A DNA stretch of 64,000 nucleotides from Eledone cirrhosa. Taxonomy: Eukaryota. The translations under genes were made by a program, and so were the position numbers. The stretch is from the NCBI GenBank assembly GCA_964016885.1, contig OZ024741.1, positions 76,322,001 through 76,386,000 of the forward strand, in the 5' to 3' direction. Below are positions 9,240-20,598 of the stretch, in pieces (positions within the stretch are counted from its first letter, which is position 1; every line of letters starts with the position of its first letter). The notes beneath the pieces are model-generated. The model was not told where the DNA came from, did no database searches, and saw only the letters and a program-made list of their open reading frames with translations.

Positions 9240-10228
9240 GTAAGACATTTTTTTTTTCCTTATATAGGGTGTTTGCTTATTTTCATTTTCAAATTTTTAA
9301 AGATTTTTTTTATTTCCTTCTCATAATAAAGTACCAATCATATATTAAAGATCAATATAACCAGTTACCTCCAACTTCATGTCTTATATTCATGTTAGAA
9401 CTTACTACTACTACTCCAGTGGATTGGCAGAATGGTTAGAGCGTCAGACAAATTTTTATGGTATTTGTTCTGGTTCTTTATATTCGGAGTTCAAATTCTG
9501 CCAAGATCAATTTAATCGACTTACACCTTTCCCCAAATTTCTAGCATTATGCTTAAATTATTATTATTATTTTGTTTCATTCTTTTGTTGAAATGTATTA
9601 CAGATGTCTCTCGTAAGTTTGTTGTTATTCCATTGTTAGCCAACATTTTGTTTGAACATTTAATATTGTTTTAGAGTTAAACTAACCTGTATCTTGAGCT
9701 GGTTAATTTTTCTCTACCTGTAGCCCTTAGTGGCTAAACCTGTGTTTGTTTTCCATACACAGCCCTCAATGTTTAGTCAAAATAAGATGGTACACAACAA
9801 AATTTCTTTTGCTGAATTCAACAGCAAGCTGTCTGCAAGACAGAACAGCCAGCTCTCCACCAACATCACCACTACCACTTCAGACAGTAGCAACAAAAAC
9901 AATACTAACACAAACACTGCCACCATCACTACAACTACCAACACCGTGGCCACCACTTCAACAACAAAAAATATTACTGAAACAAAAAACACTATATTAA
10001 AGTCTAATTAAAGTCTTTACTCCAATATTGCACTGTGGTCTGTTCATAAAGACGATATAAACATTTGTATTAACAAAACTTTTCTTTTAGATATTTTCTG
10101 TAAACTTATTGTAGGATGTTAAGAGTTAATTTTTCCTCCCTACAAAATTGCTAGCCTTGTGTCTAAATTATAAGCCATTATTTCTTATTTACTCATGTCT
10201 AAAATAATATTTTGCTTCATTGTTTCAG

Positions 10229-10467
10229 GCCAAGCTAAAAGGTCACATACATGATCCAAATGCCCCAGAACTTGTACATTTTATCTTTACACCTCTCAGT
10301 CTGATCTATGAGGCAAGCCGAGATAAAACACATGGTGACTACAATATAGCTGCTAATGTATATTCTCCAATGCTCACAGCAGAAGCAAAAGAACTTCTTC
10401 TTAACTGCTTGACATCTAAAGAAGTAGATTTATGGATGTCTTTTGGTGCTGCATGGACTACAAGTCG
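10229..10467 (+). CDS. EPS8: EPS8-family exon (AKLKGHIHDPNAPELVHFIFTPL...LWMSFGAAWTTSR)
   Basis: CAG/GTAAG boundaries; strong match to EPS8 [23 protein letters not shown]...LWMSLGGTW. Confidence 0.95.
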
Positions 10468-11599
10468 GTAAGGTTTATTTTCTTTACTACAAAAGTCACT
10501 ACAGTGTATATTAACTATGATATAGTTGAATAATATTAGGGATGTAACCCATTGAGATGGAAAAAATGAAGAGAATCACCTGTGGTAACACGGCCTGCCA
10601 GCATATGGAGTGTTTTGGTTCATTTCCTATAGGCAATTCTGTTCACTTTTTCCATCTTAAGCGGTTATATCCCCAATTTTATTCAACCATGTTGTAGTTA
10701 GTATGTGTTGTTGTAGCCTATGCATCAAGCAAAATACTCTTAAATTTCAATCTTACTACATGCTCCTCAAGCCTTGCATTCTTTACATACACACATAATC
10801 AACATCATTATTTCACATCTGCTTTTCCAGCACAGAATCCCTCCACTCATTGCCTTCTTTCATCTTCTCTGTCAGCTTCAGCGATTTGAGATCAGATCTT
10901 ACAACTTCCACCCAGGTCTTCCTTGGTCTTTATCTTCTGCTGCTTCCTTCTATTGCAGAGATAGAGACAGATAAATATATATATATATATAGAGAGAGAG
11001 AGAAATAACATATAGAAAGAGACAGGCGACACCATTTATGGAGTATGCTCATTCTTTTATGAATGAAAGCATTTTAGAACATTAATCACCCATTCTCTTT
11101 TTTTTTTGTCTTACATTTGAGTTTCATGAATTCTGAATAAAATTTTGAGAATGTTTTGATAAATTATACTGTTCATACCATAGTTTGTGAAGTTATTATC
11201 TAGATTAAAAACAAATTCATTCAGACAAGTAACCACAACATCCCTCAAACCCTTCTCCTTCTCTGTTCTACCTGTCACCCTTTCCATGCACATTCAATAC
11301 TTCTCTTCATTCTGAATCTCAACCACTTACTCTTTGACTTCCTTACCTCCACCAAACTCCTTAAGCTTAATTTTCACCTTCATTCCATCATCACAGTGTC
11401 CACCACCCTACCAGCACACTCTCATGCACTTCAACACCAACACTCAACTTCCTATTTTTCCTTTCACATTTTTCAGCTTCCACTCACACCAGCAGCACAC
11501 CTCCCTCCCACTTCTAACTCTATGTGGCTGTCTTATCGTCTCCACATGCAATTGTCCAATAGAACTGGTTTTGACTTTCCTGGACTCCATTTTTTAACC

Positions 11600-12935
11600 T
11601 CTGGTAGCCTCCCTGCAATCCCACATCTCTGACACCATGCCCTCTGTCTCTTTGCTGTCTTCATTTTTCAATCTGGCTTAGAACCCTACTCTTCACCCTC
11701 GATGTTAAGTCCCTATATACTGTCATCCCACACACCGAGGGCCTTTTCACCCACCACCATTTCCTTGACCTTTATCAATTGCCTCAACCATTCACCTGGC
11801 TGAGCTGGTCCTCATTCTCAACTGTTTCTTTCTTTGGTGAAATATACCAACAGACGACAAGAGTGGCCATGGGCACAAGAATGGGCCCCTGCTACACCAA
11901 CTTATTCATCGGCTATGTTGAGGCCCCCATCTTTTCCCAATAAACCAGCCCCACATCCGAGCTATACAGACATTACATTCACAGCTTCATTGACACCACA
12001 TCACTCATCTGAGTACAGCATGACTCCTTCTGTTTCTTCCACCCCTCCCTTGATTTCACCACCTCTATCTCCACCATTTCTGTCCACTTCCTGCATATCT
12101 CTGTTTCCATTGACCATTCCAATCACTCACTCATCACAACTACCTCAACTTTACCCCCTCACATCCCACCCACACCAAACACTCCATCCCCTACTCCCAA
12201 TTCCTTTGTCTCTGCCGTCTGCAGTTGAGGCTCTGGCTTATTACATGGCTAAATTCTTCACCCAGCTAGGATATCCCTCTACCCTGATACAAGCTGCCCT
12301 CATTCGTGCCCATGGAGTCGACTGCACTCTTCTCTTACACCATGCTACCCCACCATCATCTAGATACCATTTTTCTTTACCTACCACCCTTCCACCTTGT
12401 CCCTTCAGAGGACAATCCTCCACTTCTTCCGCGGCCTCCAGTTGGATCCCTCCACCTCTCCCATTTTCCCCTTCCCACCCCTCCTCTCTTTTAAATATGC
12501 ACACAACATTAAGAACCTTCTCGTTTGCAATTTCATCCCTCCTTCCAACTCCTCTCCTTGATCCCTTCCCTACTCCCAACTATGCTGCCACACATGCAGC
12601 TTCATTATCCCCACCACCACCCACATCAGACCTAATGGCCATCTTTTCATGTTAGGGACTCTTTTTGTTGCACTTCAACTAGCCTTGTCTATGGGCTCTG
12701 GTACACACTATGTGGTGCCAATTAAATTAGTCACACTGGCCAACAGATTTGCTGAACATCTGCCAGACATCTGGATTGGCAACTCATCCTTAGTGGCCCA
12801 ACATTTCTGTTCTTCCAGTCATTCCATGTGTCAGCTCATTGTGTTCAGGCTTGCACTACCAGTGTGAACAAGGGTATAATTTTATTCTTAATACCTCTAC
12901 CCCCATTGCCATAATGCACCTCCCCTCTTCCTGAT
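11600..12935 (+). mobile_element. Decayed Penelope-like retroelement
   Basis: Frameshifted pieces LFTLDVKSLYTVIPH (~11685), GVAMGTRMGPCYTNLFIGYVE (~11860), FFTQLGYPSTLI, and LANRFAEH from the GIY-YIG region; boundaries approximate. Confidence 0.8.
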
Positions 12936-13551
12936 ATCTGCTCTTCACACCCCATCCAGTACCATCCCTCATCCATGCACCCACACTGAAATACTCACAC
13001 ACACATAGATACCATACACATACAACAAAATAGCTCTAATATACTAATTAATAAACCTACACATAGAAACACACACACATCAGCACATATACACGTTGTA
13101 TTTTGTTGCCTTGACAACTGTAACTGACTTTCATTTCAAAATTAGCTAGTCCACCTAAGTTACATGTCATTTTAACAATACTTTTTGTAACAAATTTTCT
13201 TTTATATATTATATACACCAACAAATCACACTCATACACAGTGCTTATACAGCCAGGCACACTTAGACACCTTCACAAACTATGTATAGAACTTCCCACC
13301 TATATATGCAGTGATACACACAAAAAATGTATAACAATTACACACGCTCAACCCTTTTTCTAATTTTTATATTTTTTCCCTTAAAAAATGTTGTTCTTTC
13401 CACTGTACTCTCCTGACAAAGCGCAAAAATCCAATAAATTGAATGCCTTTTTCTCTCTTTCATCTAAGCGTGAACTTAATAACATTAATTCTTTTGTATC
13501 TCTGTTTGCCTTTTAAAATATATATACATATATATATGATATTTATTACAG

Positions 13552-13684
13552 GGAAGATTTCAAATCATATGTGGAGCCATACACACCTCGTTTCTATAAT
13601 GGCTGGCACCCAACAACAATGCTAGATGACTATAAACCACCACAACCACAACCACATGGAATACCTAAAAACCAACCATCAATG
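13552..13684 (+). CDS. EPS8: EPS8-family exon (EDFKSYVEPYTPRFYNGWHPTTMLDDYKPPQPQPHGIPKNQPSM)
   Basis: CAG/GTACGT boundaries, phase 2 to 0; PYxPRFxNGW motif of EPS8. Confidence 0.92.
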
Positions 13685-14903
13685 GTACGTTTATAGCCTT
13701 CAGTTAATCATTCATTTATCATCGTTGTAATATCATACAATACACAGAAAGTTATTTTATTAAATCCCTCCAAAGTTTTGATTATTTTCAAAATGATTTG
13801 TAAATTATAAGCACTATCTTTCATTAGAAATATGATAATTAAAGTATATAAATCTATATACAAAAATATATTATTTTAAGTAAATGTGGGTCTGTGTAAA
13901 ACAAAAAGCTAGAATAATACACCAAGTATTAACCCTTTCATTACTATATTTCTGATTAATGACAATGTGGATAGTTTTCAAATAATTTTGAAAATAATCA
14001 AAAGTTTGGATGAGTTTAGTAATCTAACTAACTTATTATTAATCTGGTGTTTTGAGCATAACATTAAACTATGAAGCAAATATTTTGGATTTAAATACTT
14101 TAAATCAAATTGTTTTTTATCATTGACCCAGGAGTGGTGTCAGGTGGCATGGTGTCAAATGAGTTAACATATATGTCGTTGGGATCGCAAATATTCAAAT
14201 AATGATAACTGGGATAATTGGCTGTTGATTGATTAGTGTTTTGGGGGATTAATAGGGAATTTATCTGTGATGCAGCCATACCAGGACTCCTCCCAGGATG
14301 GCATAAATGATGAGGTTGACAGTTGAAAGCTATCTGATTCTTGCATATATGATGTCTGCTGTAAGATTCATCACTGGCTGACAATATCAGTTTTGGCCAT
14401 CTGTGATTGCCATGCATGCATGGCTTCTGTTCGCCGGTGAAATTGATTAGCTGACAATATCTGTGTTGGACGTCTGTGATCGCCGTGTATGGGTGTCTTT
14501 TCACCATTAAAGCTGTAATTGGCTGACAATATCTGTGATCCTCATGTGTGGATGGCCTCTATCTATAATGCTGTAGATGCACTGGTTAGAAGCAGCTCAA
14601 TCTATCCCAAATGAACACTGACACAAGTAAAAATGCAAGAAAAATATATACAGAAGCTTCTATCATCATTGTGATAATTGTTTTAACATTCACTTTTACC
14701 ATGTAGGCATGGGTTGAATGAGACATTTTGGGGTAGTTTTTCGATGGTTCCTGATGGTTCTTTTACACTATATTTTTAAGTATAGTATATACCACTGAAG
14801 TGATGCTCCACTCATTTCCATTCTTTCTAGCCTTACACCAAATCTAAATAAATGAATATTAACTGCATTATATAAAGATATTTTTATTTTTATTTTTAAC
14901 CAG

Positions 14904-14944
14904 ATGGGAGCCAACAGACCAATCCAACATCATGATTCTTATAT
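14904..14944 (+). CDS. EPS8: EPS8-family small exon (MGANRPIQHHDSY)
   Basis: Strong polypyrimidine tract + CAG, GTAAGT donor; its 41 nt supply the phase 0 to 2 link between flanking exons. Confidence 0.8.
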
Positions 14945-15013
14945 GTAAGTTTGTACCTCAATTTTGTCATCATTTTACATCTGCTTTCCATGTTATATTT
15001 TTTCCATGTTATA

Positions 15014-15104
15014 TACCATTGATAGTTGGTTTTTAGGTATTCCATGTGGTTGTGGTGGTTTATAGTCATCTAGCATTGTTGTTGGGTGCCAGCCATTATA
15101 GAAA
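15014..15104 (-). other. Inverted copy of EPS8 exon sequence 13591-13687
   Basis: Reverse complement matches 13591-13687 apart from a 6-nt deletion and one substitution. Confidence 0.93.
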
Positions 15105-15289
15105 GGATTGGATGGGTTGTTACAGACCAAGACTAGACTAGTCAGGAAACCATATCCTGTTCATTATACATAGCATATTTTGGCATAGTTTCTATAGCTA
15201 GATGCTCTTCTTACAGCCAACTGTTCTGCAGGGTACACCAGGTGCTTATATACTGACAGTAGCATTTATTGACATGTGCAGCCTGGTTG

Positions 15290-16125
15290 GAGGTGGTATC
15301 ATGACTGGCCAGTGTAAAATCAGTTGGCTGGAATTTGTAGACAACATAGTGTTATTTAATTTGACAAGATGATCTTCAACTTGCACTTGATAGGTTTGAT
15401 GCCAAGTGTCACATGGTTGTAATGAAAATCAGTGCTGTGAAAACTGAGATACTTGTCCTCTCAAGGAAGCCTGTGCAGTGCACTCTACCTGTGAATGGAG
15501 TTTTACTGAAGCAGGTAGAGAAGTTCAAGTGTCTCAGGGCTATGTGCATGAGTGATGGAATGCAGGAGGCTGAATTAAGTGCAAGAAATGCAAAAGCTGA
15601 TGCACTAATGTGCCAGCTTACGCATTCCATAATCAGAAGCAGGGAGGTAGGCATAAAAGCCAAACTCACTGTCTTCAATTCGGTTTTCGTGCCAACCCTT
15701 ACCTATGGTCATGAATCTTGGGTAATGACCGAAAGAATACGATTATGAATACAAGTGGCTAAAATGGGATTTCTCCGAAGGGGCTTTGGAGTAACATTAC
15801 TTGATAAAGTACGTAGCTCGGAGAGTCATTCTGGGTAGTCCCCCCACATTCTCCGAATTGAGAGATCACAGATCCAATACTATAGATATATAGTTAGAAT
15901 GTCTTAGGAAAGAATCGCTGGACAGATTTTATAGGCAAAATCAACCGGCAGGAGACCCAGGGGTAGACCCTGAGCAAGATGGCTGTATAACATCCATGAG
16001 CTTGGCTGATCACACTTGGGGATCCAGCCACATCAGCTGGAATTGGTTGCTTCTAACAGGATTCACTGGAAGGAGTGTTTGTGGACTCTGCCCCCATGAC
16101 TCTCTCAGGAATGGGCAAAGAAGAA
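15290..16125 (+). mobile_element. 3' fragment of a second RTE-type LINE family, decayed
   Basis: KISAVKTEILVL..LKQVEKFKCL..LTYGHESWVMTER and a downstream RPRGRP motif; stops present. Confidence 0.8.
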
Positions 16126-16384
16126 GTAGCAACATTTAGTTAACCTCTTTTACATTGTGAAATCAGATCCCAATGCAGTCAATTTTGTACTTCATCTTTC
16201 AACTTTAGAATGGGGCTGGTGCAATTTATTTAGTTATATATCTTGCTCTAAATTTGTGGTTTTATGCTTGGTAAGTATTTGTTTTCTATCTCTGTGCTCT
16301 GAGTTCAAATTAATTGACTTTCATCTTTTGGAGAGTGTTGATAAAATACATTACCAAAAAAAATCTCTTCTGCAGATATTGTGA

Positions 16385-17035
16385 TAATGATAATATTGTG
16401 TACAGTGCTCAGGTGCACTACAACTCATCAAAGTGTATGTATAGTACATAGAGTAATGTACAAACGTCAGGAAAATGAACAGTGCATGAGTCATGATATA
16501 CAGGTGTGCATGTGTATGGAAGGGGGACATCAGGTGTAGTTTTGGCGAATTTCGGGAAGCATGAGGGTTTTAAAGGATGCAGTGTCCCAGCACCTAACAA
16601 CTGACGCAGGCAGTTTGTTCCATGCTTCAGCAACTTAAGCGTTAAAAAATGTTTCCAAAAGTCATGGGAGCTGTGCTGTTTTCTGACTTTGTAGGCATGT
16701 CCACGTGTGTTAGACACATGGTGATCAAAAAGGGGCTCAGGGTTGTTGTTGGCGAGATGGTTAATAACTTTGTGGGTGTTTACCAAGTCCATTGCCAGAC
16801 GTCAGAGCTTCAATGAATCCATGTCCAGGGAAGCAAGGCATTCAGAGTATGGGAGGTGTCTGATGGAGGGTATGCGCTTGGTTGCACGTCTGTGAATAGT
16901 TTCCAGGAGGTCAATGTTCTGTACAAGATAGGGGTTCCAGACTGATGATGCGAATTCCAAGTGTGGTCGTACCATAGCTGTATACAGCTTAAAATAGAAA
17001 TCACTATTAACTTTTAACATCTTGTACTGCATCAC
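16385..17035 (-). mobile_element. CR1/L2-like LINE 3' fragment
   Basis: KLYTAMVRPHLEFASSVWNPY..RRATKRIP and NTRGHAYKV motifs typical of the CR1-group RT C-terminus. Confidence 0.82.
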
Positions 17036-17218
17036 ACTGTTTTAGCAAGATGGAAAGTAAAAAAATCATCACTATGAATAAATCATATTAAAAATTGAAG
17101 TCTTTAATATGCTACAAATATTCTCAACAATCTGTTTAAGATAATTTAAACTTTTGAATTAACAAACCCATTTTTAGATATCTTTTGTTAAATCATTACT
17201 AGTGATATGGCAGACATA

Positions 17219-17260
<42 letters not shown>

Positions 17261-17286
17261 TAGGTGTATATATATATATATATATA

Positions 17287-17672
17287 TCATCATCATCTTC
17301 CACGCTTGCATGGGTTTGGACGGGAATTTTCCCACTTGAGGCAAGATTGGTTGTCTTGCTCATATAGGACTGTCTGGCGGGTTTTCTACGGCTGGATGCC
17401 CTTCCTAACACCAACCACGTTTACAGTGTGGACTGGGAGGTTTTTACCGTGTTACCTACACGGCCACATTACAGTGTGGACTGTGTGTTTTTTTGTCGTG
17501 ACACCTACACGACCTCATTTATTTCGGACTGGATGTTGTGGTACCAACATAACTTTACATCGAAAGGGGTGGTGTGGACGGGGGTGTATTTTTGTTAGAG
17601 GTGCCTACTGATTGTAGGTTATGCTTTGTACTTAGGCAAGGCGGGTCTTCTGTATTACTGTGTCGCGCCAAA
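17287..17672 (-). mobile_element. RTE 3'-end fragment (antisense)
   Basis: Reverse complement of the ORF end/3'UTR of the 23283-26887 family, including the (GAT)n tail; flanked by (TA)n. Confidence 0.88.
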
Positions 17673-17688
17673 GATATATATATATATT

Positions 17689-18013
17689 GAGGCACATGGC
17701 TTAGTGGTTAGAGCATTGGCCTTGCAATTGAAAGGTTGTGAGTTCAATTCTCAGACCAGGCGATGTGTTGTTTCCTTGAGCAAGACACTTTATTTCACAT
17801 TGCTCCAGTTTACTCAGCTGTAGAAATGAGATGACCCCAGTCCCTATCATACCAAAGTGATCGTGGAGGTGCCACGGCAAAAAAGCACCCAGCACTCACT
17901 GTAAATGAGGTTGGTGTTAGGAAGGGTATCCAGCTGTAGAAATCAAGCCAGAATCAATTCCCGTCCCACCCTTGCAAGCAAGGAAAAAAAGCGGACGTAA
18001 AATGAAATGATGA

Positions 18014-18017
<4 letters not shown>
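17689..18017 (+). mobile_element. tRNA-derived SINE family 1 with RTE-derived tail
   Basis: A box TGGCTTAGTGG, B box GAGTTCAATTC, central CCTTGAGCAAGACACTT (CORE-like), tail similar to the RTE 3'UTR ending (GAT)n; near-identical copies at 27103 and 51904. Confidence 0.88.
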
Positions 18018-18044
<27 letters not shown>

Positions 18045-18046
<2 letters not shown>

Positions 18047-19175
18047 AATAGATACAAATTCCATTTTATGTCCCAAATGCAAACTATGAGTACATAAAAT
18101 ATGTAGCAGGATCACAGGCAAGCTATCTAAAAACGTAGATTTTATATGCGACCGATGCTCAGGTGCAGTAAGTAGCAAGTACCCACAGGATACTAGCTCC
18201 TTCTATTGCCCAGATGGTTCTATAGAAATAATGGACACTTTCCTTTACCTGGGTGACAAAATCAGCAGTGGTGGGGGGTGGTCTGAAAGTACAGTAGCCA
18301 GAGTTAGAACGGGATGGAAAAAGTTCAGAGAGATATACCGCTGTTGACCACAAAAGGTTTCTCTCTAAAAATGAAAGGCAGATTGTATGATGCTTATATA
18401 CGAACAGCAATGTTACATGGCAGTGAGACATGGGCATTGTGTGCAGAGGACTTGCGCAGACTGGAAAGGAACGAAGCATGCATGCTCCGTTGGATGTGTA
18501 ATAGTAATATACACAAACGGCTAAACATAAACGAACTAAATGAGAAATTAGGAATAAGAGGGATCAGATGCTGTTTACTCGAGAGAAGATTGTGCGCAGG
18601 AAAGACGACAGCTGTATTAAAAACTGCAGGGCGATCAAAATTGATGGAAGTTACGGAGTAGGTAGACCCAGAAAAACCTGGGATGACTTGATAAATTCCG
18701 ACCTTGCACATTTACACCTCTCTAAGACAATGTCACTGGATCGAGATCTTTGGTGCCACGCAGTAATACAGAAGACCAGCGTTCCCTACGTGCAAAGTTA
18801 ACCTACAGTCAGTAGGCCCCTCCAAACCCACTACTCCTACTCCACCCTTCCACTCCTGCCAACACCACCATTTCTCTATAAAGTTATGTTTGTACCACAA
18901 CATCCAGTCCAAACTAATGTGGAGAAAAAAAAAGAGTGTGGGGGGGGGGAACACAGTCCACGCTGTAATGTGGTTGTGTAGGTAACATGGTAAAAAGCTC
19001 CCAGCCCACACTGTAAATGTGGTTGGTGTTAGGAAGGCCATCCAACCTTAGAAAACCTGCCAGATAGTCCTATACGAGCGAGATATGGTCACCCAACCAA
19101 TCTTACCTCAAATGGGACAATTCCCACCTAACCTATGCTAGCGTGGAAGATAGACGTTAAATGTTGATGATGATA
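18045..19175 (+). mobile_element. 5'-truncated decayed RTE copy
   Basis: Colinear with ~25760-26887 (GRLYDAYIRTAMLHGSETW...), with frameshifts and a (GAT)n tail; flanked by (TA)n. Confidence 0.9.
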
Positions 19176-19316
19176 TGTATATATATATTCATATATATAT
19201 TTATATATATATGTGTGTGTGTGTGTTTTATGGGAACATGTATCATCAGAAAACTATTTAATTTCAAATTGTCTATTTAATTTGTTAATTTATTATCTAT
19301 TCTTCTTCTGAACCAG

Positions 19317-19427
19317 GCAAGATAAAATGGGACCACCAAACCAAAGATTTTCCAATGTGCCTCTTCCCTCTGTACCAGATAACAGTAATGAATCTTTCCT
19401 CCGGGCTCTGAGAGAAAGAGGAACTAA
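19317..19427 (+). CDS. EPS8: EPS8-family exon (QDKMGPPNQRFSNVPLPSVPDNSNESFLRALRERGTK)
   Basis: CAG/GTAAGT boundaries, 111 nt, phase 2-2; joins in frame to the SH3 exon. Confidence 0.85.
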
Positions 19428-20598
19428 GTAAGTATCAATTAGAAAACATTTGACTACAAGGTAAAGGTACTTGGCCTAGCGATTTGAGTATTAGACTCAT
19501 GTTCACAAGATGATGGGTTCAAATTCTTGACTAGGCAATATGTTGTGTTCTTGAGCAAGACACTTCTTTTCAGATTGCTTTTTATGATTGACTAGAGCTC
19601 ATGTCATGAAAACACCCATGAAACTTTTTATGAGATACAATCTCATAACAGGCCAACTAAACCTGCATTGGTGTGAGCTATAAATTTCATGTTTTAGCAT
19701 AGCATATAGTAGAAATATAGATAAATAGACAGAAAATTTATTTATACTTATTGGGAGCAAAGTTATCAATGATATACATGCTCTTGGTGTCTTTTGGCAA
19801 TGTTTTCATTCTTAGTTTAGTTCTTTCTCACTTTGACAGTTACCTATGTACTTTATTATGAATTTCAAATTACATTTTTCACACTTTGAAATAGAATCTT
19901 GTTCTTTTGTGCTGTACCTAATTACGTCTCGCAGCACAGACTGAGTTGACTGGTGATGTGCCATAATACAAGCACTGTCCGCCAGTACAAGCACTGTGAC
20001 ACTAAAAGTAAATATGGTGAGAGACAGTATAGGATGTGAGAGCATGTAATAACCTCTGCAGTGCCGATGCCACCATGAAATGCACACTGCTGCTGTTTCG
20101 AAAGAATGCACTCAGTACACTCTATAAGGTGGGTGGCATTAGGAAAAGCATCCAGCCATGCCAAATATGGAAGTTATGAGCAAGATTAGGTCACTCCAAC
20201 TCATGAGGTCTTGGGTCGTGACAACTCGCCCAACCCATGCCAACATGGAATGTAGTCATAAAATGATGATGATGACAGTTTGGCAACCATTGATATACAT
20301 CCTTAAGTTATGTCCATATTGACTTATGTCCAGTTGGTTGGAATGGAACTTGGTTGTAAGTTGGGATGTACATGTATTCATTTTTGATTATTCCTTTATT
20401 CTTTAACTGATTTCAGTCATTTAGTGCAAGCATGGCTAGGCAATTAAGGAATTGGTTTTGCAACCACAGGGCTTTGGGTTCACTGCATGAAACCTTGGGC
20501 AAATGTCCTCTACTATTATATGCAGCTTCAGATTAAACAATTCCTTTGTGAGTGAAATTCGATAGATAGAAACTATGTAGATGTAGAAGCCTGTTATT

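What the first reader, a model, noticed from the sequence alone, without database searches (positions are those of the whole stretch)
13591..15104. Antisense copy of an EPS8 coding exon and its splice donor in a downstream intron: candidate dsRNA editing/splicing switch
Seen: 15014-15104 is the reverse complement of 13591-13687 (the 3' ~70% of the exon plus the GTA of its donor), differing by one substitution and a 6-nt deletion. It sits 70 nt after the 41-nt exon, inserted in a repeat tail next to a duplicated TTTCCATGTTATAT. The pre-mRNA could form a ~90-bp duplex that covers the donor and loops out the 41-nt exon. Skipping both exons removes 133+41=174 nt and keeps frame (phase 2 to phase 2). 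Known: ADARs edit exon/intron duplexes (editing complementary sequences), and coleoid cephalopods recode extensively. Inference: this is a locally templated, de novo editing-complementary sequence or an exon-skipping switch.
Basis: partly seen in the sequence, partly recalled or inferred. Interest (0 to 1): 0.8.

Follow-up and report, generated by a model that had tools for sequence, protein, structure and literature searches.

The report
Backwards EPS8 exon copy in intron
An octopus-type EPS8 gene carries a young, backwards 91-base copy of one of its own exons wedged into an old repeat in a later intron; it is most likely a tolerated DNA-repair scar, and although it is predicted to pair with the exon in the RNA, the one transcript assembly available shows normal splicing and no editing.

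Summary
15014-15104 is the reverse complement of 13591-13687 (one substitution, one 6-nt repeat unit missing). It is the only second copy found in the 3.0-Gb genome, and DNA contigs tile it. It interrupts an old SINE-like repeat: about 5 nt of the repeat are lost, a 14-nt piece of the left flank is re-copied, and both junctions have only 1-4 nt of micro-homology. That is the anatomy of a multi-step templated insertion. It is young: 1 of 91 bases differs from the template, while the host repeat is 16% from its family majority. A near-perfect duplex is predicted. The one spliced RNA contig includes both exons with no A-to-G change, but contigs hide minority events and the tissue is unknown. Against 'ordinary': no other unique-sequence inverted copy was confirmed in 1.26 Mb. 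The scan noted the same class in other genomes (8 notes). Verdict: likely tolerated repair scar with probable low-level bystander editing; a functional editing or skipping switch is unshown.

The parts
10229..10467 (+). EPS8 upstream exon (end of the PF22975 spectrin-like domain)
   Evidence: RNA contig covers 10228-10466
13552..13684 (+). EPS8 133-nt coding exon holding the conserved PYTPRFYNGWHP motif
   Evidence: RNA contig
13591..13687 (+). Template of the insert: 94 exon bases plus donor +1..+3
13739..14040 (.). High-copy element with inverted ends (106-nt arms, 75% complementary) 55 nt after the donor; a predicted local hairpin
   Evidence: I20; very high repeat depth
14904..14944 (+). 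EPS8 41-nt coding exon
   Evidence: loose end behind 13684 in the RNA contig reads into it
14966..14994 (-). 3' tail of the host SINE-like repeat, left of the insertion
   Evidence: alignment with 11 genomic copies
14995..15013 (+). Filler: includes a second copy (15001-15014) of the left-flank 14-mer at 14985-14998
15014..15104 (-). Inverted copy of the exon end and GTA (antisense in the pre-mRNA)
15105..15267 (-). Body of the same SINE-like repeat, resuming after the insertion; 23 of 140 columns differ from the majority of 11 copies
15268..16129 (+). 5'-truncated, decayed non-LTR retrotransposon, a separate insertion; 93 of 842 columns differ from the majority of 14 copies
19317..19427 (+). 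EPS8 downstream exon (acceptor of the proposed skip)

Best explanation
The insert is most likely a young, tolerated scar of template-switch DNA repair that happened to copy an EPS8 exon backwards into an old intronic repeat, and it likely causes at most low-level, unselected editing. Shown: the copy interrupts a SINE-like repeat, about 5 nt of the repeat are missing, a piece of the left flank is duplicated, and the junctions share only 1-4 nt with the template. Inferred: a break or stalled fork in the repeat; the free end re-copied its own flank, then primed 1.3 kb upstream at donor +3 (helped by a TATA match at 13692-13695), copied about 91 nt in the inverted sense and rejoined (alt-EJ or MMBIR type; the enzyme cannot be told). 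Inferred for the RNA: the donor of the 133-nt exon is transcribed 1.3 kb before the antisense arm and is normally committed first, so both exons are included; the duplex can still form in some molecules while the 4.4-kb next intron is transcribed, giving scattered minority A-to-I editing.
For: Empty-site comparison with 11 repeat copies; the automated empty-site test flagged only this arm among 12 rows. Flank duplication and junction views. Age: 1 of 91 differences (95% interval 0.03-6%) against 16.4% for the host repeat and 11% for the neighbouring LINE. The copy matches this species' own version of the exon (61% identical to Octopus sinensis), so it arose after that split. RNA contig shows inclusion with 0 changes. 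The template motif is unchanged in 13 of 16 cephalopod proteins, the other 3 lacking the region, and 23 of 39 exon adenosines in the duplex would recode, including Tyr, Asn and His of that motif, which argues against a selected, promiscuous editing stem (inference). Inverted, micro-homology-flanked, multi-template insertions are described as germline variants (PMC8421209 passages; PMC7407515 passages). In squid 94% of recoding sites in non-neural samples are edited below 1% (PMC9068888 passages).
Against: Such copies are not common nearby: in 1.264 Mb no other unique-sequence inverted copy was confirmed (12 rows; 6 of the other 11 searched, all repeat families; 5 not searched), so my attempt to show a high neutral background failed. 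The template distance (1.3 kb) exceeds the 100 bp that the MMB-TI search used and the ~30 bp of SD-MMEJ. The insert looks homozygous in sample S1 (unbroken contig over the left junction, doubled depth on the shared part; inference), which fits drift or selection. After removal of intron 13685-14903 the arms are only 110 nt apart and 92% paired on average in silico. The RNA evidence is one assembly of unknown tissue and genotype.
Confidence: 0.75

Rival explanations
1. The insert acts as a new editing-complementary sequence: once intron 13685-14903 is spliced, exon and copy form a hairpin with a 110-nt loop, and ADAR recodes the exon robustly, most likely in nervous tissue.
For: Predicted duplex -163.5 kcal/mol, pairing probability near 1 outside the repeat bulge; intermediate -183 against -84.5 kcal/mol without the insert. 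Exon-plus-downstream-intron is the usual geometry (abstract start of PMC1920255). 91% of robust squid recoding sites are neural type, so a non-neural sample would miss it.
Against: No A-to-G difference in the RNA contig. Perfect long stems are edited non-selectively (recalled), and here they would hit a conserved motif. No sign of age or conservation.
Confidence: 0.15
2. The duplex masks the donor and loops out the 41-nt exon, giving an in-frame 58-residue deletion isoform.
For: 174 nt keeps the frame. The duplex pairs exon -3..-1 and intron +1..+3. Long-range stems can alter splicing (PMC2724269 passages). In mussel gene models the homologous exon is swapped for an unrelated one in 10 of 18 sequences listed with the anchor, so isoforms without the motif exist in a mollusc.
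Against: The RNA contig runs unbroken through both exons; no 10467-19317 joint or loose end is listed (19 loose ends were not shown). No cephalopod protein with the flanking domain lacks the exon. The antisense arm is made 1.3 kb after the donor, while co-transcriptional folding is said to favour a ~60-nt window (as cited in PMC2724269). The acceptor at 13552 is outside the duplex.
Confidence: 0.05
3. Same neutral outcome but an RNA template: a reverse transcriptase (LINE or polymerase theta) primed the broken end on the nascent EPS8 pre-mRNA.
For: The copy is antisense to the transcript, as expected if the + strand end was extended on sense RNA; a truncated LINE starts 163 nt further on; the one unique-sequence copy confirmed in 1.26 Mb is a transcribed exon.
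Against: The same polarity results from fold-back on the sense DNA strand. The copy begins at intron +3, not at a natural RNA end, and two intron-derived bases (15015-15016) argue against spliced mRNA. The LINE has its own short flanking repeat and is older.
Confidence: 0.1
4. The copy is an assembly artefact.
For: The supporting runs may be the assembly's own data; the right junction is bridged by 30 nt only.
Against: Contigs tile the insert with 0 differences at normal depth, and the copy carries its own substitution and indel.
Confidence: 0.02

Closest known systems
MMBIR-type templated insertions (MMB-TI), complex class (Osia et al. 2021, PMC8421209; passages read)
   Same: Inverted copy of a nearby template, micro-homology or micro-homeology at junctions, more than one template in one event, found as germline variants.
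   Different: Template 1.3 kb away (that study searched within 100 bp); template is a coding exon; mechanism here is read from sequence only.
SD-MMEJ / polymerase theta-mediated end joining (Hanscom and McVey 2020, PMC7407515; passages read)
   Same: Small deletion plus an insertion templated from the flank, leaving a direct-repeat motif; AT-rich junction.
   Different: The 91-nt segment is longer and far more distant than the repeats (within ~30 bp) that SD-MMEJ uses.
Four-point template-switch mutations (Loytynoja and Goldman 2017, PMC5453318; passages read)
   Same: One switch-and-return event creates a new inverted repeat able to form RNA structure, without selection.
   Different: That model covers short-range single events and excludes long-range or repeated switches, as seen here.
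Editing-complementary sequences of ADAR substrates such as GluA2 Q/R (listing and abstract starts; details recalled)
   Same: Exon paired with a downstream intronic complement.
   Different: Known ones are old, conserved, imperfect stems with shown site-selective editing; this is young, near-perfect, with no editing shown.
Inverted-repeat loop-out exon skipping (bioRxiv 10.1101/2025.03.07.642063; listing and abstract start)
   Same: Inverted repeats enclose an exon in a loop.
   Different: There both arms are intronic mobile elements; here one arm is the exon itself and skipping is not seen.

Membership tests
Templated insertion (MMB-TI / alt-EJ) | Inserted segment is a copy of nearby unique sequence in inverted orientation | tested here: met
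Templated insertion (MMB-TI / alt-EJ) | An empty site can be inferred, with little or no loss of sequence | tested here: met
   11 repeat copies run straight across the site; about 5 nt missing here
Templated insertion (MMB-TI / alt-EJ) | Micro-homology or micro-homeology at junctions | tested here: inconclusive
   1 nt exact (or TATA with a 4-nt slip) on the left, 2 of 3 nt on the right; near chance level in AT-rich DNA
Templated insertion (MMB-TI / alt-EJ) | Template within about 100 bp (MMB-TI search definition) or about 30 bp (SD-MMEJ) | tested here: not met
   Met by the 14-nt flank copy, not by the 91-nt segment (1326 nt between arms); so filed as a longer-range template switch, not as classical SD-MMEJ
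Templated insertion (MMB-TI / alt-EJ) | Dependence on polymerase theta or BIR proteins | not testable with these tools
   needs genetics
Editing-complementary sequence | Can base-pair with the exon in pre-mRNA | tested here: met
   prediction only
Editing-complementary sequence | A-to-I editing in the paired exon | tested here: inconclusive
   0 other letters in one RNA contig; minority editing invisible; tissue unknown
Editing-complementary sequence | Conservation or compensatory change across species | not testable with these tools
   no related genomes held; RAD runs of other samples do not reach the insert
Editing-complementary sequence | Editing lost when the element is deleted | not testable with these tools
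   needs a minigene
RNA-structure exon-skipping switch | Skipped isoform exists | tested here: inconclusive
   major isoform includes both exons; no skip joint listed; minor isoforms may be dropped
Terminal inverted repeat of a DNA transposon | Arm sequence is multi-copy in the genome | tested here: not met
   2 matches only, unlike the 8 other pairs searched, with 332-2009 candidates each

The most novel reading that the evidence does not exclude
One template-switch mutation created, in a single step, a full-length editing-complementary sequence over a conserved coding motif in an octopod, and the exon is now robustly recoded in nervous tissue: a caught-in-the-act example of how new cephalopod recoding clusters are born.
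Probability: 0.15. Interest if true: 0.65.

Novelty: new member of a known kind. Interest (0 to 1): 0.27.

Why it matters
As it stands it is one more templated insertion that a gene tolerates. Its value is as a natural experiment: cephalopods recode heavily, and here the age, the exact duplex and the unedited control (exon bases 13552-13590, outside the stem) are all defined, so raw neural RNA reads would show directly whether a newly made perfect exon-intron stem is enough to start recoding. A negative result would show that splicing kinetics shield exons from even a 90-bp complement. My searches listed no paper on this locus or on templated insertions as a source of editing complements; subscription journals are mostly not covered and no supplements were read.

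Tried and rejected
No RNA holder was listed by the run search; X4 proved to be spliced RNA only by its contig. In one search repeat reads swamped the tables (101 variant rows, 61 joints not shown). Joints 14992-15106 and 14992-15108 in X1 and X4 were rejected as an empty allele: only 26-27 letters on the short side, and the locus contig is not broken there, so they are read as other repeat copies (inference). A background estimate from 464 kb first gave 7 inverted pairs, but 5 of the other 6 proved to be repeat families (the 1.7-kb pair untested); the wider 1.264-Mb scan also gave no second confirmed case, and it cannot see copies whose template is a repeat. The idea that the insert is the 5' end of the LINE was rejected: the LINE starts at 15268. 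Rfam found nothing at its gathering score in 13300-19500. Whether the 6-nt difference is loss in the copy or gain in the exon could not be polarised. A small-RNA (hairpin siRNA) role was considered but not tested. A Pfam scan of the LINE frames was not obtained, so its class is named from translation and recall only.

Full report
Observation. The alignment of 13540-13740 with the reverse strand of 14960-15160 shows a block from 13591 to 13687 with one substitution and one 6-nt gap in the Pro-Gln repeat (sequence). The score is 171 against at most 43 in 200 shuffles. A search of the 3.0-Gb genome with the exon gave 2 matches, the exon and this copy. Contigs of DNA run X1 tile 14033-15341 with no differences; the stretch shared by exon and copy has about twice the depth (21.5 against 11-13), and the contig over the left junction is unbroken, which suggests both chromosomes carry the insert (inference).

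Gene. The exons translate to EPS8: PF22975 on the two upstream exons, 92% identity to Octopus sinensis and 88% to Argonauta over 78 residues, one locus in the genome. The organism is therefore an octopod (inference). The 133-nt and 41-nt exons sum to 174 nt and their loss would keep the frame. The motif PYTPRFYNGWHP, most of which lies inside the paired part, is unchanged in 13 of 16 cephalopod proteins; the other 3 lack the region altogether. Of all 133 proteins held, 106 matched the motif pattern, 22 did not, 1 was truncated and 4 had no anchor; 10 of the 22 are mussel-type models in which an unrelated exon takes its place.

Origin. The DNA right of the insert is a repeat with 323 candidate copies. 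Aligned with 11 copies, its tail lies left of the insert and its body right of it, so the insert splits one element. A related copy in the window has a tRNA-like head (Rfam tRNA 24.7 bits, below the gathering score; alignment weak), hence 'SINE-like'; the family name was not determined. About 5 nt of the repeat are missing, and between the left flank and the exon copy lies a second copy of a 14-nt piece of that flank. The junctions share 1 nt (or TATA with a 4-nt slip) on the left and 2 of 3 nt on the right with the template. Two bases (15015-15016) come from the intron, so the template was genomic DNA or unspliced RNA rather than mRNA (inference; chance about 1 in 16). A decayed non-LTR retrotransposon begins at 15268 and is a separate event. 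The copy differs from its template at 1 of 91 bases, the host repeat at 23 of 140 and the retrotransposon at 93 of 842 columns from their family majorities, so the insertion is much younger than its host. Proline is conserved at the substituted codon in Octopus, so the change is probably in the copy. This is the pattern of complex templated insertions (PMC8421209, passages; PMC7407515, passages; PMC5453318, passages), except that the 1.3-kb reach is longer than those definitions.

How common. I tried to show that such copies are frequent here and could not. In 464 kb, 7 locally two-copy inverted pairs were found; 5 of the other 6 are repeat families and a 1.7-kb pair was not tested. In 1.264 Mb, 110 inverted pairs (25-600 nt, 90% or more, within 5 kb) fell to 102 after a low-complexity filter and to 12 rows with only two local copies; only the EPS8 arm had an empty-site signal. 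Of the other 11 rows, 6 were searched and all are repeat families; 5 were not searched. If those are repeats too, the rule of three gives at most about 2.4 events per Mb (hand calculation). The test is blind to copies templated from repeats, and this window was chosen because an exon is involved, so it neither proves nor excludes neutrality. The scan's notes list 8 findings of this class in other genomes, all read as repair or copying scars (unchecked AI notes, not evidence).

RNA. The arms are predicted to pair at -163.5 kcal/mol, and the pairing survives in a fold of 13500-15200 with probability near 1 outside the repeat bulge; of the donor only +1..+3 and +8..+11 are paired. If intron 13685-14903 is removed first, the arms are 110 nt apart and the exon arm is 92% paired on average, -183 against -84.5 kcal/mol without the insert: a credible ADAR substrate. 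It holds 39 exon adenosines, 23 of which would recode. The only expression evidence is run X4 (another sample of the same study, library not on record): one 1582-nt contig at depth 148 covers 10228-10466, continues at 13551-13684 and reads on into the 41-nt exon, with 0 other letters, and the table of other letters is empty at a 1% setting. No joint or loose end towards 19317 is listed (19 loose ends not shown). This excludes majority skipping or majority editing in that sample only; contigs drop rare variants, and tissue and genotype are unknown. In squid, robust recoding is 91% neural and most non-neural recoding is under 1% (PMC9068888, passages), so a neural effect remains open. Co-transcriptional folding is said to favour a window of about 60 nt, though long-range stems do alter splicing in flies (PMC2724269, passages).

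Verdict. Best reading (0.75): a young templated-insertion scar, tolerated, with at most minority editing. Rivals: robust new editing complement (0.15), skipping switch (0.05), artefact (0.02); an RNA-templated origin (0.1) concerns origin only and overlaps the first. It works like a templated insertion and could work like an editing-complementary sequence, but no defining functional feature of the latter was met. Literature searches (listings and abstract starts; passages also of PMC5850729) found nothing on this locus; no supplements were read. New member of a known kind; interest 0.27.

Noticed in passing
proteins P0014, P0016, P0029-P0058 (Mytilus EPS8 models): Mussel EPS8 models carry either the exon with the PRFYNGW motif or an unrelated exon at the same place, like a mutually exclusive pair (10 against 8 of the 18 listed with the anchor).
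   Followed up: partly
window:13739-14040: A very high-copy element with inverted ends sits 55 nt after the donor; its predicted hairpin would shorten the distance between exon and copy and could draw ADAR to the region.
   Followed up: no
window:15030-15041: The sense strand of the insert holds a cryptic acceptor-like site (15030-15036) and an overlapping donor-like site (15035-15041); no use seen in the RNA contig.
   Followed up: partly
window:35981-36542: Near-perfect inverted ends (104 nt, 94%) of a TA-flanked element with 875 candidate copies, inside a later EPS8 intron.
   Followed up: yes
window:50342-50621: 127-nt arms, 97% complementary, 26 nt apart: a long perfect hairpin inside the last EPS8 intron region.
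   Followed up: no
G000:C2:76408994-76413629: A 1.7-kb inverted duplication, 98% identical, 1.2 kb apart, not tested for copy number.
   Followed up: no
window:11200-13000: C-rich decayed stretch in the intron before the 133-nt exon that looks like a fragment of a reverse-transcriptase element (by eye).
   Followed up: no
window:10232-10465 and 13553-13684: This EPS8 departs from Octopus and Argonauta at several positions those two share, hinting at faster protein change in this lineage.
   Followed up: no
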